Below are positions 15,886-34,894 of a stretch of DNA of 64,000 nucleotides, in pieces. The position numbers and the translations under genes were made by a program. How positions within the stretch are numbered: the stretch's first letter is position 1; every line of letters starts with the position of its first letter. Source of the DNA: a virus. Location of the stretch: the IMG/VR virus record IMGVR_UViG_3300036774_000066, positions 32,001 to 96,000 of that record, one strand, 5' to 3'. Below the pieces are notes generated by a model. The model did not search any database. It saw only the letters and a program-made list of their open reading frames with translations, and was not told where the DNA came from.

Positions 15886-16701
15886 CTACTTTCCTATTAC
15901 CACTCCACCGGGCTGTCCATCAATAATGGTAAAGGAAACACCAGTATTCTTTGCAGCAATGTCCTTGTACGTATCATACTTCTTGAAAAGCATGTACTCA
16001 GGGTTACGCCGCAATGCCTTTCCAAGTGAGTCAATCGTGGCTACTTGCGCCAATGATGCCTGCTTCGCATTCTCCGCTGCCCAAACAGTTTCATCCTGCT
16101 TGATATTGGAGAACTTCGCATTCTGCATAAGCAACGGCACCCCGGACGCTTTGAACGATTCAATTGCCATTGCAGACCCTTTTGTGCTCGCCCCGTCCAT
16201 GTCTACAACAACAGAATTGTAATCAGGATACTTACTAAGAACAGACCGAACACCTGACCGAATATCCATCTTGGCAAACTGAGTGTAGATAGCGTCAATC
16301 GTTATCACCGACACACGATCCATACTGGTAGACTTTGGAGTCATCTGTGCAAAAACCGCATTGCGTGTGTCAAGGTCAGCAGCTACCGCGCACCTAACAT
16401 AAAAATCAACAGTACACGGTGTCTTATTGATTATCACCCGGTCATCCTCCCCGTTCCCTCCATCCTTCCCAAAATGTTCCTTGATAGCAACTGACGTAGC
16501 CTCAAGTATAACAAGTACGTTCTTTGTTCCGTTAGGATTACCTGTCCCAATGTCAACCATGCCCGCCTCACGAACTCCCTTTTCCCACCCTGTCGGAGTA
16601 AGAATCTTTCCGACATATCCAGCAGGAATTTGCCGATACTCTTCACATCCGAGAAACACAAACGCCATCAGGCAAACCAAACCAACCAATCCGTACCTCA
16701 T
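15886..16701 (-). CDS. SPFH/band-7 domain lipoprotein
   Basis: signal/lipobox FLGC, IPAGYVGKIL, IRSGVRSVLSKY, C-terminal helical segment; typical phage SPFH layout. Confidence 0.65.
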   Translation of the reverse strand: MRYGLVGLVCLMAFVFLGCEEYRQIPAGYVGKILTPTGWEKGVREAGMVDIGTGNPNGTKNVLVILEATSVAIKEHFGKDGGNGEDDRVIINKTPCTVDFYVRCAVAADLDTRNAVFAQMTPKSTSMDRVSVITIDAIYTQFAKMDIRSGVRSVLSKYPDYNSVVVDMDGASTKGSAMAIESFKASGVPLLMQNAKFSNIKQDETVWAAENAKQASLAQVATIDSLGKALRRNPEYMLFKKYDTYKDIAAKNTGVSFTIIDGQPGGVVIGK

Positions 16702-17051
16702 TTCGCCTCCCCTTTGTTAGAGTTAGTAGAATTAAGAATACGTTGCTCATACGCCTTTTGCTGATCCAATACCTGACTCCGATCAATCACACCACGCGGA
16801 GTAGCATTGACGGACAGGGAAGACAGCAGGAACAAGGCGTAACCCACCCATGCAAGCCCGGCAATTGTCCACGCTACCCTCTTGACAAGTGCCTTGACCT
16901 TCATTTCATGCAATTCGTCATTGTCACCTTCGCCAAACAAGAACAACCGCCAGGAAAACCTACACACAACGGTCACAGCAACAAACAAGACAATCAACGC
17001 TATGACTAATCGCAATAGTGATGGACCATAGATTCTTAGCAGGTCAACCAT
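16698..17051 (-). CDS. membrane protein (2 TM segments)
   Basis: two hydrophobic helices; AGGAGG RBS at 17059-17064. Confidence 0.65.
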   Translation of the reverse strand: MVDLLRIYGPSLLRLVIALIVLFVAVTVVCRFSWRLFLFGEGDNDELHEMKVKALVKRVAWTIAGLAWVGYALFLLSSLSVNATPRGVIDRSQVLDQQKAYEQRILNSTNSNKGEAK

Positions 17052-17070
17052 TAAGAAACCTCCTTTGAAA

Positions 17071-17871
17071 AATGCGAAACAAAGCTACACTATACTTCAC
17101 CAAAACACCACGGCACAGGCTCCAACACCACCGCAACACCACCCAACGGTACGTTACTCTACCGTCACTCGACATAACGATTCCCAACTCAACCTCACCG
17201 CCGCAAGACAGAACCAAACTTCACCGAAACACTGCGGCACGGAACCAAACCCTACCACAACCGCGCCCTACTGAACATGACGCTACCGTCAAGGAACTTG
17301 ACCGCACAATACGTCACCACAACCAGACGTTAGCATACCGGACAAAACCCAACCCTACCATCACATCATGGCACGACACGATACCTCCACAGAACATAAC
17401 TTCACCACTACGCCACGAGACAATACTCTACCGTCACCCATCGGCACGATACTATACCAAAACGTGACTGCACCTTACCAAGACAAGACGTAACGGCACT
17501 ACACCTTACCACGACAGGACGTGATAGAACGTCACGTCACCTCACCAAGACACTATCTCACCTGACCGAACCAAGACGTTAGGATACCTCACTGCGCAAT
17601 ACTTAACCGTCCCCCAACATAACGATTCCAAACCCGACCTCACCGGAACACTACGCGACTGCACCCAACTCCACCACGACAATACCTCACCCTACCCCAC
17701 GTAACGATACCGTGACCAAACATCTCCCGACATTACAACACCAGAACATCACACTACGTCAAGGCACTCCACTTTACCACCACCAGAAAACACATAATGA
17801 AACGTAACCTCACCGAAACCGAAACCGGACCGCACTGTACCTAACCAATACAAACATTACCATTACGTTAT
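17071..17871 (-). ncRNA. 5-nt-periodic (GT-NNN)n array, candidate multi-guide RNA precursor for the adjacent RAMP protein (VIPR-like)
   Basis: hand parse gives ~153 units, ~133 ending AC on + (GT on gene strand); 27 six-nt units, all CNNNNN on +, divide it into blocks; no minus-strand ORF >=60 aa; begins right at the RAMP stop codon. Confidence 0.8.
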
Positions 17872-18546
17872 CTACTCAACCTTTGTCAAGGTATAGTCAA
17901 ACTTCCCATAGATACCAGAATTATGCCACTGACCAAAACCCTTGACATCGCGTGAATAGTCAAAAAGAAGACGCAGAATTTCCTCCGTTGCACAAAACTT
18001 CGGAATCTCATAGCAAGTAACCTGACACTCAAAAAAAGCACCCGCTTCAATCATCTCACTCCGAGCCAAGGAAACTCGTGGACCTTGCTTAGTCATAGCA
18101 CGAAGAGGACGCTCCAAAAATCCGATAGGTTTATCTGTAATCAAACGGATTCTGTGAGGATTGACAGCAACAGACTTGTCAATATTGGAGCGAAAGTTAG
18201 AAAGAGTCTCGTCAACCTCTTCTTCCTTCTTCATTTTCTTCTTGCCCGTAACAAAACCATTTAATGCCTCCGCTGACGCTTTCAAAACCCCCTTGACAAC
18301 ATAGCTGTAAAGAATGGGCATACCGTCAGTATCTCGATGAAAAACCGTTGTACCTTTCTCAACCTCTTCAGGGAGAGTACCCGTTTCTTCGATAATCGCA
18401 CTCGCCAAGGCAGGATTTTTCTCGATTGCCTTCTTCGTCAAGAACTCACTCGCCGGAGTATCCTTACCAGGAAGACTCCCCAAGATCGGCTCTACAAACA
18501 TCACTTTCAAATTGTACACACTACGGGCAAGAACAAGACCAGACAT
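17872..18546 (-). CDS. stand-alone Cas7/Csm3-like RAMP protein (Vipr-like)
   Basis: YNLKVMFVEPILGS (RAMP beta1), HRDTDGMPILYSYVVKGVLK (cf. Csm3 P.IPGSSLKG), SEMIEAGAFF (cf. E.VPAG..F), C-terminal Gly-rich loop KGFGQWHNSGIYGKF. Confidence 0.8.
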   Translation of the reverse strand: MSGLVLARSVYNLKVMFVEPILGSLPGKDTPASEFLTKKAIEKNPALASAIIEETGTLPEEVEKGTTVFHRDTDGMPILYSYVVKGVLKASAEALNGFVTGKKKMKKEEEVDETLSNFRSNIDKSVAVNPHRIRLITDKPIGFLERPLRAMTKQGPRVSLARSEMIEAGAFFECQVTCYEIPKFCATEEILRLLFDYSRDVKGFGQWHNSGIYGKFDYTLTKVE

Positions 18547-20146: not shown

Positions 20147-23100
20147 CTACACGATCCAGAGTCTCCCGAAATGCTCCTCTTTGCCTTCCTTGTCATCATA
20201 TTTAATCCCGTCGAACCACCGCAAACCGTAGTAATCCGTGCCTTCCCCGTCATCTTTACTTAGCATAATACTAAATGGCAATTGTGTAAACTTATCAGGT
20301 GGACCGTCAAGATTGATTAAGTCCCAAGGAATCTCTACGGAATAGGTAGTAACATAACTGTCCTTTTCACGGGTTATCAACCCTGTAAACTTGGACCCCT
20401 TTGAACTATACTCCCCAACAGGGTAATCCTTCTCGTTTGCCGTCTTGCAAAGACCCATAATCATCTGTCCATCATCAGAACGTAAGGCCATACCAATCAC
20501 CGCCGCCTTCCCACCAGGACTCATTACACCAATCTTCAATCCATCCTCACAATGTATCCGGTCCATTGTCCTCTGAAAAGCCCGGTGTATAGGGTGAACT
20601 GCAATCACCTTTACAATTAAGAATTTGTCATTGTACCACGCCCTCCATGCTGCTCTCAAAGTATGCTGAATATCCTCTGCCTTCTTCTTCAAAGTCTCAG
20701 GAAATACAGCGTAAGGAAATTCACCCATACTATACAAAGGAGAAGGCTCCCTCGAAGCACAAGCAAAACTCGCCATGAGGCTTCTCTTGATCGAAATATT
20801 ATCATCCGGTGAAGAAACATCAACAGAAATTTCACCTACTGTAAAATTGACAACACCAAAAGGTATGCTGACAATGTGAGTCTCGTGTCCACCAAAAAAT
20901 TCTTGTCTGTTAATAAGAAACCCATTCCCAGACAACGCTATGTTAATAGTCCTTGTATGATTCGCGTTACTGGCAATAGTAACAACTACCTCTTTCCCAT
21001 TTTGTATAGAAAGTTCTATCTTTCTTACCTCTAACAATTCTCCTACGTGAACAGGTACACACATCCATCCTATTCCGTTATGTAAAACAACAGAGTAATC
21101 TCCAGCAACCGTTCCTTCACGGGTAACAACTTCTATCCAACTATCCTTCAAAGTAACTTCGAGTTCTCTTCTTAATACCGACCAACCCTTCCCTATAACG
21201 GTAGAAAATTTTTGTCCTGCTGCCTGTGGTGGAATAGCTATCGAAGGCTGTACCTCTCCATCACAAAATCTCTTGTCTACCTCTTCCTCCCAAGTCAACT
21301 TACTGTTCCATCCAAAAATCCTTGTTGCAATACCGTGTGAATCTTTCCAAATCTGAATACCAGAAAAAGGACTCAGCCATACAGTACGAGATAAACTCCA
21401 ACCTTTCAAAGGGAAATTCACCAATCCAATCAATTCCTGCACGTCAACCAACTCAAAGGGTGTATGCCACTGGTAAAAATCCACATCTTCCAAAGCAATT
21501 CTCTCGCTCAATTCCCTCGGAGTACCTAAGTCAAAAATGGCAGAAACTACCATGCAAGAATTTAAGTCATTCCCACTCTTTGACCAATCAAGCAACTCTA
21601 CATCTCTGTCTCCACTGCCAGACAATCCTAACTTCCTTCCCGTAATAGAGTTTTCCCAAAGTAAACCAACATCAGACGAGTTCTCTAAATAAATCAACAC
21701 TGCCTTTCCATGATTCCAAAAAACATTATTATCACTCCAATTATCCTCACAGCGGGGCATTTCTGGCATTCGAGAAATCCCACCCTTACTGTTATTCACG
21801 AAGAAATTGTTGTAGATTTTATTGCCAGAAGTAGTAGTGTGGACACCAAGATACTTATACCTATGAAGTAAAGCACGTATCTTTACCCCGTACTGTGTTC
21901 CCTTTACAAAATTGCGAAAGAAGTGAGCATTGTTTCCATCATGTGTGTAAAATCCACACTCAGCAGCATCGCTTCCCTCTCTGGTATCAATGATTGTATT
22001 ACTGTCAATCATGACAGGACCATCAGACATTTCATGGAAAATGCCGTATGGCTTGCTGTCAACTATTAAGTTCTGTGTGATCCTGTCTCTTGCACAATCC
22101 CCATCCAGCCATATACCATAACAACACCGCTCAATCTTGTTTTTCTTTATCAAGCTATCATCAACAGCATGAAACTTAATACCACACTCCTCACACGTAC
22201 CTACCACCCCAGGCTTTATACAATTGTCAACAATTTCATTATACTCAATACCTAAGTCATGCGAATAAAATGCCACAATGCCCGAGATTCCATTATCATG
22301 AATCTTGTTTCCTCTCACCGTATGAAATCCCCCCACGGAATGTTCTTTTATCCACTTCACAAAGGCATATATGTAAGGCTCCCCGTACTCTCCCAAATCA
22401 AGCATAGATATATCTTTATTTACAATGGGAATATTCATCGCACTCTTCGCAAATCCACCCATTCCCAAATTAAGTCCTTGTGCATTACCGTAAGATATTT
22501 CACAGTTTTCAATGGTAAAGTTAGCTCCTGCGTTCACATCAACTACGGACAACTGATTGACAGAATGCCACGTCGGTCCTGCCCAAATCGGGGCACAGCC
22601 GCCAACAAACCTAATTCCAGAAACCTTGATATTTTCCAAGCCCCTGACAATAGGCACAAAACACTGCTGCCTTACTGACCTTTCAACTTTACACCTACCC
22701 GGATGATCTGGTAAACAAACATAAATGCGAGAATTATCTTCATCCACCCACATTGAGTACAGACACAACTTCTCCTTCTCTTTTACTTCTGTCAACAAAA
22801 CACTGTTGACAAAAATCTGCTCACATCCCACATTCGGAGTAATACGTACATAGTAGATATTACTTTCATCACGAAACCACTCAGAACTCCATTCGTCCAT
22901 TGCGCACACTACCGGGGGAACTTCATCTTGTGCTGCCTCAATAGAAATTTCAGAACAATATGGCTTTATACACTCTCTGTAAACCCCTTCATGAATTATT
23001 ATCCTATCGCCAGGAAGAGCACTCTCCACAGCACACCGAACAGTCTTTACAGGTGACTGAAAAGAGCCGATGTTCTTATCGCTCCCTCGCATACTTGACA

Positions 23101-23266
23101 CATGAAAAGCAATAGAAGTATGCTTTTGTTTTGTTGCAGAGGCCCAAGCAGCATAGCCTCTAATCAATTCATCGTCAGAAGATTCAATCACAGAAGATAA
23201 ACTAAAGGAAGGATGGGCCTTCCCCTGTCCTATCAATGTCAACATTCTAAGATCGGGTGTTATCAT
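20147..23266 (-). CDS. right-handed parallel beta-helix (pectin-lyase-like, GH120/DUF1565-like N-terminus) protein with C-terminal CBM9-like domain
   Basis: GSDKNIGSFQSPVKT...ALPGDRIIIHEGVYRE; PbH1 repeats (GIKFH, GIWLD, GIFHE, NNFFVNN); C-terminal AWYNDKFL...YSVEIPW...PFSIMLSKDDG. Confidence 0.75.
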   Translation of the reverse strand: MITPDLRMLTLIGQGKAHPSFSLSSVIESSDDELIRGYAAWASATKQKHTSIAFHVSSMRGSDKNIGSFQSPVKTVRCAVESALPGDRIIIHEGVYRECIKPYCSEISIEAAQDEVPPVVCAMDEWSSEWFRDESNIYYVRITPNVGCEQIFVNSVLLTEVKEKEKLCLYSMWVDEDNSRIYVCLPDHPGRCKVERSVRQQCFVPIVRGLENIKVSGIRFVGGCAPIWAGPTWHSVNQLSVVDVNAGANFTIENCEISYGNAQGLNLGMGGFAKSAMNIPIVNKDISMLDLGEYGEPYIYAFVKWIKEHSVGGFHTVRGNKIHDNGISGIVAFYSHDLGIEYNEIVDNCIKPGVVGTCEECGIKFHAVDDSLIKKNKIERCCYGIWLDGDCARDRITQNLIVDSKPYGIFHEMSDGPVMIDSNTIIDTREGSDAAECGFYTHDGNNAHFFRNFVKGTQYGVKIRALLHRYKYLGVHTTTSGNKIYNNFFVNNSKGGISRMPEMPRCEDNWSDNNVFWNHGKAVLIYLENSSDVGLLWENSITGRKLGLSGSGDRDVELLDWSKSGNDLNSCMVVSAIFDLGTPRELSERIALEDVDFYQWHTPFELVDVQELIGLVNFPLKGWSLSRTVWLSPFSGIQIWKDSHGIATRIFGWNSKLTWEEEVDKRFCDGEVQPSIAIPPQAAGQKFSTVIGKGWSVLRRELEVTLKDSWIEVVTREGTVAGDYSVVLHNGIGWMCVPVHVGELLEVRKIELSIQNGKEVVVTIASNANHTRTINIALSGNGFLINRQEFFGGHETHIVSIPFGVVNFTVGEISVDVSSPDDNISIKRSLMASFACASREPSPLYSMGEFPYAVFPETLKKKAEDIQHTLRAAWRAWYNDKFLIVKVIAVHPIHRAFQRTMDRIHCEDGLKIGVMSPGGKAAVIGMALRSDDGQMIMGLCKTANEKDYPVGEYSSKGSKFTGLITREKDSYVTTYSVEIPWDLINLDGPPDKFTQLPFSIMLSKDDGEGTDYYGLRWFDGIKYDDKEGKEEHFGRLWIV

Positions 23267-34588: not shown

Positions 34589-34894
34589 CTACATATCCTC
34601 ACTCAATACTTTTTCAATGCCCAAAAGAATCTCTCCCCGCTGACCCTTATCCTCCGTTGACAAATACCCGCGAACTAACTTGACAATCCCCTCATAACCA
34701 TTGGACACTGCCTGCAAGTCAACGTCTTTCAACACACCCTTAGTTTCCAAAATAGACTTTAGGTATGCTATTCCATGAAGGTCTTTTGCTTCATCAGGTA
34801 ATAGAATACCTTTCTTTACAAGTAAGTGAACAAGAGACAGAAATGCAATATTGTCACTCATAGTTCTCCAAAAAGAAAGCGGGTTTAAGAACAA
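34589..34894 (-). CDS. hypothetical protein
   Basis: ORF (likely start MSDN). Confidence 0.5.
   Translation of the reverse strand: MFLNPLSFWRTMSDNIAFLSLVHLLVKKGILLPDEAKDLHGIAYLKSILETKGVLKDVDLQAVSNGYEGIVKLVRGYLSTEDKGQRGEILLGIEKVLSEDM

What the first reader, a model, noticed from the sequence alone, without database searches (positions are those of the whole stretch)
17076..17851. The variable triplets have codon-like composition; blocks may spell in-frame target sequences
Seen (hand count of 150 triplets read on +): position 1 G 45 / T 22, position 2 G 27 / T 44, and only one stop triplet (TGA at 17272). Established: G-rich/T-poor first and G-poor second positions are typical of codons. Concatenated blocks read like peptides, e.g. 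17511-17545 ACG AGG GTG AGA GTC GTC CTC (TRVRVVL), 17743-17777 AGA ATC ACT GTC GGC TCC TTT (RITVGSF), 17779-17813 ACC CAG AAC ATA GAA GTA CTC (TQNIEVL). Inference, weak: the minus-strand RNA may be antisense to coding sequences with each unit registered on a codon, recognised either as contiguous NNN or as NN with one skipped base. RNA-protein sequence preferences could also produce this bias.
Basis: inference. Interest (0 to 1): 0.7.

Follow-up and report, generated by a model that had tools for sequence, protein, structure and literature searches.

The report
Phage VIPR guide array, undecoded triplets
The 0.8-kb five-base-periodic tract is the guide-RNA array of a phage VIPR system (a CRISPR-related system first described in 2026), and the "codon-like" make-up of its variable triplets comes mostly from punctuation at guide boundaries, so it does not show what the guides target.

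Summary
The codon-like signal is weak. Chi-square across positions gives p=0.02. It rises to p=0.13 once the two triplets flanking each block junction (RNA consensus Y-GGU-R) are removed. The stop shortage is not significant (1 seen, 3.8 expected) and the other strand shows it too.

The tract is a staggered vrRNA array of the GU-NNN ("YNNNG") type. It lies directly downstream of a Cas7-like Vipr gene (17872-18546, minus strand). About 150 related viral, metagenomic and MAG loci carry the same gene plus array. VIPR, this repeat variant and staggered arrays are described in 2026 preprints, and this scan has met VIPR arrays on other genomes.

I found no target under contiguous, period-4, period-5 or two-of-three decodings. 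I searched the phage's own genome and 1.07 Mb of related loci against shuffled controls, and ran exact scans of four long guides in viral and metagenome collections.

A target-free test on 1,329 family blocks weakly favours a 3-nt step per unit (z=3.2, against about 0 for steps of 4 or 5). That fits the published codon-periodic logic. It does not show whether two or three bases are read.

Verdict: a new member of a known kind; the codon reading is unproven.

The parts
17872..18546 (-). vipr-like gene: a 224-aa solitary Cas7-like RAMP protein
   Evidence: No Pfam hit. AlphaFold2 model has mean pLDDT 87. Best Foldseek matches in the PDB are type VII Cas7 and Csm3, E about 3e-8. Profile-profile match to SUSP1-type Vipr proteins over the full length: probability 75%, E 2.5e-5. 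More than 220 homologues, all unnamed.
17079..17863 (-). staggered vrRNA array: about 152 pentamer units (GU + NNN on the RNA) in about 25 blocks of 4-8 units
   Evidence: Parses. 131 of 153 separators are GU. All three variable positions carry about 0 bits (0.03, 0.00, 0.06). The array starts 9 nt after the vipr stop codon, on the same strand. The same gene-plus-array layout occurs in 88 viral/MAG loci plus 67 metagenome loci.
17099..17846 (-). block junctions: one extra G gives GGU (ACC on the plus strand) every 21-41 nt (5n+1); RNA consensus is Y-GGU-R
   Evidence: Plus-strand ACC units start at 17099, 17130, 17161, 17197, 17223, 17254, 17285, 17316, 17357, 17383, 17404, 17430, 17456, 17477, 17508, 17544, 17570, 17642, 17673, 17709, 17740, 17776, 17812, 17818 and 17844. 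The same extra-G grammar is seen in relatives. The preprint describes this as 'staggered arrays'.
   Evidence: The contiguous 21-mer has no exact match in metagenome contigs. No near match beyond shuffled controls in the phage's own genome or in related loci.
   Evidence: 18-nt contiguous cores have no exact match in viral contigs.
17920..17948 (-). sigma-70-like promoter match inside the 3' end of vipr, about 55 nt upstream of the array
   Evidence: Consensus scan only. The number of sites in the region is not above shuffles.
16698..17051 (-). 117-aa ORF with an AAGGAGG ribosome-binding site directly after the array; candidate accessory gene, unproven
   Evidence: ORF list and sequence. No Pfam hit. 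No homologue next to any of 110 related vipr loci.

Best explanation
The tract is the guide-RNA (vrRNA) array of a phage-encoded VIPR system of the GU-NNN ('YNNNG'), staggered type. Shown: a Cas7-like Vipr gene is followed on the same strand by about 152 pentamers, and the pair recurs in about 150 related loci. Inferred from the published VIPR mechanism: the minus strand is transcribed with or just after vipr. Vipr protomers bind one per 5 nt, gripping the constant GU. The variable bases are presented to double-stranded DNA of rival mobile elements to silence them. The extra G that makes GGU every 4-8 units marks where one short guide ends and the next begins. Inferred from my tests: each pentamer advances the target by 3 nt, so guides can stay in register with codons. 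The plus-strand 'codon-like' composition is nevertheless mainly junction punctuation (RNA NNY-GGU-RNN), not a readout of target codons. My working guess is that all three variable bases carry guide information, because blocks are too short for a two-base code. This is unproven, and the targets are unknown.
For: Identity of the system. Fold and profile homology of the 224-aa protein to Cas7/Csm3 and to SUSP1-type Vipr. Same-strand GY-NNN arrays with extra-G junctions sit next to the homologue in 88 + 67 loci. The preprint names YNNNG repeats and staggered arrays. A second preprint reports NGU/NN-like variants such as WGT/NN. The record is a 156.6-kb virus.

Punctuation as the source of the bias. 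Positional bias drops from p=0.021 to p=0.13 without edge triplets. G at position 2 is 8% at edges against 23% inside.

Three-nt step. On 151 arrays and 1,329 blocks the coherence test gives z=3.15 for period 3, -0.16 for period 4 and -0.74 for period 5. Position-permuted controls range from -1.3 to 1.7. The direction was the same in the discovery and replication sets. The size of the signal relative to an ideal simulation (about one quarter) equals that seen in canonical arrays, whose code is known.

Three informative bases. Information content is about 0 bits at each position. Divergence between homologous guide pairs is similar at n1, n2 and n3 (31, 25 and 33 differences) against 5 and 12 at G and Y. 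Under any two-of-three reading the phage's own genome holds 16-33 perfect matches to its own blocks, whereas canonical systems show no self-targets.
Against: No target was found for any guide under any decoding, so guide function is inferred, not shown. The period-3 signal is modest (z about 3), comes from many tests, and is not significant for this window alone (z 1.9). The two-base readings did not replicate consistently: n2n3 gave z 2.75 then 0.45, and n1n2 gave 1.3 then 2.2. In many relatives the base after GY is purine-biased. That fits a three-base handle plus two read bases, as in the published code. The self-match argument rests on the 4-5-unit blocks and fails if guides span several blocks. 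No accessory (vap) gene is recognisable.
Confidence: 0.7

Rival explanations
1. Published two-plus-one code with a degenerate handle. The unit is really NGU + NN (or GUN + NN). Only two of the three variable bases pair, the target skips one base per unit at the wobble position, and the third variable base drifts freely.
For: This is the experimentally established rule for GGY/NN guides, with a structural basis. Junction units are canonical GGU. A second preprint describes WGT/NN-type variants. Many relatives show a purine bias at the base after GY, or G enrichment before GY. Period 3 is favoured.
Against: In this window none of the three positions carries information. Neither pair of positions gave a reproducible signal. 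With blocks of 4-8 units it leaves only 8-16 read bases and 16-33 perfect self-matches in the phage's own genome. All three positions diverge alike between homologous guides.
Confidence: 0.3
2. The plus-strand triplets are in-frame sense codons, and the minus-strand RNA is antisense to coding sequences or mRNAs. The block 'peptides' would then be real protein segments, and the composition would reflect codon usage.
For: Plus-strand counts look codon-like and only one stop occurs. With edge triplets included and a pooled codon table, this phase scores best of six. Canonical VIPR targets are mostly coding and wobble-aligned.
Against: The bias is largely junction punctuation and is non-significant in the interior. 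The phase fits worse than composition alone and is among the worst with the phage's own codon table. Family-wide, the two in-frame phases are the worst of six. In-frame phases are not enriched in posterior assignments. Family-wide there are 109-112 stop triplets in each orientation among 3,672 interior triplets, ratios 0.88 and 0.74. The three example blocks have no contiguous match in the viral or metagenome collections. Canonical VIPR binds DNA on either strand.
Confidence: 0.1
3. Not a guide array. The tract could be a DNA-level protein-binding or structural repeat, a structured non-coding RNA, or an odd coding region.
For: No target, no expression data, and no accessory gene were found. 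An ORF of 131 aa (17072-17467, plus strand) runs through part of it.
Against: The tract is tightly linked, on the same strand, to a Cas7-like gene across about 150 diverse loci while the triplets are hypervariable. RNA folding is not above shuffles (z -1.6). There is no Rfam family match. The 5n+1 grammar breaks any reading frame.
Confidence: 0.03

Closest known systems
VIPR systems with 'YNNNG' repeats and staggered vrRNA arrays (bioRxiv 10.64898/2026.04.26.720920, Methods and fig. S17-S18)
   Same: A solitary Cas7-like Vipr gene. A same-strand 5-nt periodic array with constant G and Y and three variable bases. One-base offsets where one guide ends and the next starts. Encoded by a phage.
   Different: The text I could read gives no targeting rule and no small-RNA evidence for this repeat type or for staggered arrays. 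Here the pyrimidine is almost always U, all three variable positions are uninformative, and no vap-like neighbour is recognisable.
Type II VIPR of Escherichia phage SUSP1 (Vipr + Vap1 + four vrRNAs)
   Same: A remote but full-length profile match of the proteins. A pentamer period, G-rich guides on the vipr strand, and a likely 3-nt target step.
   Different: SUSP1 has GGY + NN units, 9-16 or more per guide. Each guide has a structured 3' tail and its own spacing, and a vap1 gene is present. The window has GU + NNN units, 4-8 per block, no tails, and about 25 blocks head to tail.
Class 1 CRISPR Cas7 backbones (Csm3, type VII Cas7)
   Same: Best structural matches of the protein. The protein is periodic along a guide RNA, with bases taken out of pairing at fixed intervals.
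   Different: There are no CRISPR repeats or spacers, no other cas genes, and the period is 5 nt rather than 6.
TIGR-Tas arrays
   Same: A non-CRISPR tandem guide array in phages, with units of about 36 nt in places.
   Different: TIGR uses Nop-domain Tas proteins and dual-spacer 36-nt units. Here the protein is a RAMP and the block length varies between 21 and 41 nt.

Membership tests
VIPR system | Vipr protein: minimal single-RRM RAMP related to Cas7, with a G-loop | tested here: met
   AlphaFold2 pLDDT 87. Foldseek top hits are type VII Cas7 and Csm3, E about 3e-8. hhalign to SUSP1-type Vipr: probability 75%, E 2.5e-5 over 179 columns, including the C-terminal G-x-G-x-W-R...G-x-F motif.
VIPR system | Adjacent same-strand RNA array of pentamer repeats with constant and hypervariable positions | tested here: met
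   152 GU-NNN units start 9 nt after the vipr stop. The layout is conserved in 88 + 67 related loci.
VIPR system | Canonical GGY/NN repeat | tested here: not met
   Only junction units are GGU. Interior units are GU plus three uninformative bases. This corresponds to the 'YNNNG' alternative named in the preprint.
VIPR system | Accessory vap gene next to vipr | tested here: inconclusive
   Flanking ORFs have no Pfam hit and no homologue beside 110 related vipr genes. Only BLAST-level similarity was examined.
VIPR system | Noncontiguous code: target advances 3 nt per 5-nt guide unit | tested here: inconclusive
   Family-level coherence z=3.15 for period 3 against about 0 for periods 4 and 5. The window alone gives z 1.9. 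No actual target was found.
VIPR system | vrRNAs expressed, processed and bound by Vipr | not testable with these tools
VIPR staggered array | Guides abut with a one-base offset instead of being separated by tails or ribozymes | tested here: met
   Block lengths are 5n+1 (21-41 nt), with a single extra G at each junction. The figure legend is quoted.
CRISPR array | Direct repeats of 25-40 nt alternating with spacers | tested here: not met
   Tandem-repeat and direct inspection show only the 5-nt period.
TIGR-Tas | Nop-domain Tas protein and fixed dual-spacer units | tested here: not met
   The neighbouring protein has a RAMP fold, and unit length varies.

The most novel reading that the evidence does not exclude
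GU-NNN arrays use a denser variant of the VIPR code. Each Vipr protomer sequesters only two guide bases and presents three, so one pentamer reads a whole 3-nt target step with no skipped base. This would let guides of only 4-8 units be specific. It would also remove the wobble tolerance that is thought to explain the canonical code.
Probability: 0.3. Interest if true: 0.65.

Novelty: new member of a known kind. Interest (0 to 1): 0.35.

Why it matters
VIPR is a months-old class of RNA-guided DNA silencers thought to pre-date CRISPR. Its published code (pair two bases, skip one) was worked out for GGY/NN guides only. The GU-NNN family is large, with hundreds of loci in groundwater, sediment, gut and sludge viromes, and its rule is not stated in the papers I could read. 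This window is a clean example: about 25 guides and three fully variable positions. Knowing whether it reads two or three bases per unit would show how flexible the Cas7-like filament is, and would be needed to predict what such phages silence. The present finding does not settle that. Its compositional clue is mostly punctuation.

Tried and rejected
1. Own-genome target search. I tested contiguous, NNNx, NNNxx and the three two-of-three patterns against shuffled blocks. There was no excess and no depletion.
2. The same search on 0.6-1.07 Mb of related viral and MAG loci, using the window's guides and up to 999 family guides. Hits were at chance level, apart from trivial matches to unmasked duplicate arrays and to the loci I had fetched by pattern.
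3. In-frame, wobble-aligned search of the phage's own coding sequences. This followed a lead from earlier scan notes that guides may target sister-phage versions of the phage's own genes. No excess was found.
4. Exact scans. The contiguous core of block 17319, and the cores of blocks 17743 and 17779, gave 0 hits in viral contigs. Block 17511 gave 0 hits in metagenome contigs.
5. Two-of-three patterns for block 17319. These gave 14 and 4 hits, falling into 8 and 2 independent sequence groups. Free positions matched the guide at chance (0-3 of 8), with no convincing convergence.
6. Avoidance of GY inside triplets as the source of the bias: not seen.
7. Codon-usage likelihoods: no phase beats a composition-only model.
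8. The coherence test on canonical SUSP1-type arrays, run as a positive control, reached only z 1.4-2.0 against 7-9 in simulation. Negative results of this test are therefore weak evidence.
9. Host identification.
10. DNA of the closest homologue (65% identity) is not held.
11. Rfam: no family matched.

Full report
**What is there**

Window 17052-17871 is an intergenic stretch between two minus-strand ORFs. On the plus strand it reads (NNN AC)n. AC-AC distances peak at 5 and 10, then at 26, 31 and 36, which means a 5-nt period with +1 slips. A dynamic-programming parse gives 152 units from 17079 to 17863. They fall into about 25 blocks of 4-8 units, and each block is closed by a six-base unit ACC-NNN.

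On the minus strand, the strand of both flanking genes, this is (GU NNN)n. One extra G makes GGU at each junction, and the junction consensus is NNY-GGU-RNN.

**Checking the observation**

- Position 1: G43, T22.
- Position 2: G28, T44.
- One plus-strand stop, TGA at 17272.

The three positions differ in composition with p=0.021. The two triplets flanking every junction are semi-conserved: a purine follows GGU in 23 of 25 blocks, and a pyrimidine precedes it in 23 of 25. They account for most of the 'G-poor second position'. Without them, the 103 interior triplets give p=0.13. Only a shortage of T at plus position 1 remains.

One stop against 3.8 expected is not significant. The opposite strand is equally stop-poor, with 3 against 6.8.

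Read as codons, the plus-strand triplets never beat a composition-only model. They are the best of six phases only when the edge triplets are included and a pooled codon table is used. With the phage's own codon table they are among the worst.

**What it is**

The upstream 224-aa ORF (17872-18546, minus strand) has no Pfam hit. Its other properties:
- It folds confidently, with pLDDT 87.
- Its best structural matches are type VII Cas7 and Csm3.
- Its family profile aligns over the full length with SUSP1-type Vipr proteins, at probability 75% and E 2.5e-5.

A literature search found the 2026 preprints on VIPR systems. In these systems a Vipr RAMP protein polymerises on vrRNAs made of GGY/NN pentamers. 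The complex recognises double-stranded DNA by pairing two bases and skipping one. The target therefore has codon periodicity, and the skipped base usually falls on the wobble position. The Methods name alternative 'YNNNG' repeats. A supplementary figure describes 'staggered' arrays in which one guide ends where the next begins.

I fetched relatives of the window's protein from three collections:
- 80 viral loci.
- 30 loci from MAGs of many phyla.
- 80 metagenome loci, mostly groundwater, sediment and sludge.

Of these, 88 distinct arrays in the first two sets and 67 in the third carry a same-strand GY-NNN array next to the gene, with the same extra-G junctions. No other neighbouring gene is shared with the window. 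The window belongs to a 156.6-kb virus record. The array RNA is not unusually structured and matches no Rfam family.

The tract is therefore a VIPR guide array of a described but uncharacterised variant.

**Does it spell targets?**

I decoded blocks as contiguous NNN, NNN plus one or two skipped bases, and the three two-of-three patterns. I compared each with shuffled blocks.
- The phage's own genome shows no excess and no avoidance.
- 0.6-1.07 Mb of related loci show only chance hits, for the window's guides and for up to 999 family guides.
- Codon-aligned near matches in the phage's own genes are at the shuffled level.
- Two-of-three patterns of the longest regular block gave 14 and 4 hits, in 8 and 2 independent sequence groups. 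The free positions agreed with the guide at chance.

These searches cover only a small part of what a proper environmental search would cover.

**A target-free test of the register**

If blocks copy coding DNA, the triplets within a block should share one codon phase when the target step is 3. The phase should rotate when the step is 4 or 5. A six-phase mixture likelihood against within-array shuffles has good power in simulation, with z of 9-14 if all blocks were coding.

Observed results:
- On 836 blocks: z=1.7, -0.25 and 0.1 for steps 3, 4 and 5.
- On an independent set of 493 blocks: z=2.9, 0.1 and -1.2.
- Combined, 151 arrays and 1,329 blocks: z=3.15, -0.16 and -0.74. Five position-permuted controls fell between -1.3 and 1.7.

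As a positive control I took 59 canonical vrRNA tracts from SUSP1-like phages. They give only z=1.4-2.0 where simulation predicts 7-9. Real guides therefore show roughly a quarter of the ideal signal, and the GU-NNN family shows the same fraction.

I read this as weak but consistent support for a 3-nt step, and as no support for steps of 4 or 5. In-frame phases are not enriched. Family-wide, stop triplets are only mildly depleted, with ratios of 0.74 and 0.88. A general in-frame contiguous codon reading is therefore unlikely.

**Two bases or three?**

This is unresolved.

Evidence that all three bases are read:
- All three positions carry about 0 bits in this array.
- Homologous guide pairs differ equally at the three positions.
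- Under any two-base reading, the phage's own genome contains 16-33 perfect matches to its own blocks. Canonical systems show no self-targets.

Evidence that only two bases are read:
- This is the established mechanism.
- Many relatives show a purine bias at the base after GY.
- Another preprint reports NGU/NN-like variants.

The pair-wise versions of the coherence test did not replicate.

**Verdict**

The object is a new member of a known, very recent kind: VIPR with a YNNNG staggered array. This scan has already met VIPR arrays in other genomes. The idea that units map onto codon-sized steps is plausible and weakly supported at the family level. No target or frame was demonstrated.

Noticed in passing
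window 16698-17051 (-): A 117-aa ORF with hydrophobic stretches and a strong AAGGAGG ribosome-binding site starts immediately after the last array unit, so the array sits inside an operon. It has no Pfam hit and no homologue next to related vipr genes.
   Followed up: partly
window 17164-17199 vs 17614-17644; 17319-17359 vs 17573-17615: Pairs of blocks share sub-strings, including their irregular separators (RNA ...GA-auc-GU-uau-GU... and ...CU-aac-GU-cu...). The motif GU-gcc followed by a non-GU separator also recurs about six times. This may reflect guide duplication or related targets.
   Followed up: no
window about 34800-34817: A six-unit guide from the array of an unrelated VIPR phage (locus L041), read contiguously, matches this phage's genome with 1 mismatch in 18. 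About 0.7 such hits are expected by chance over the whole search.
   Followed up: no
L112, L113, L115, L116 and L111, L117, L119, L122: The two-of-three pattern of block 17319 hits two families of near-identical sites, four viral contigs each. One family lies outside long ORFs and contains a TAGTTTAATNGGTAA-like string reminiscent of a tRNA D-arm. These are probably chance hits multiplied by shared ancestry.
   Followed up: partly
L024:3053-6242: One related viral contig carries a GY-NNN array of about 614 units (3.2 kb) that spans the vipr position. It is far larger than any other array seen here.
   Followed up: no
window 17920-17948 (-): A sigma-70-like promoter match with an extended -10 lies inside the 3' end of vipr, just upstream of the array. 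It could give the array its own transcript.
   Followed up: no
window 20147-23266 (-): A 1,039-aa protein with right-handed beta-helix / NosD domains, typical of phage tail-fibre depolymerases.
   Followed up: no
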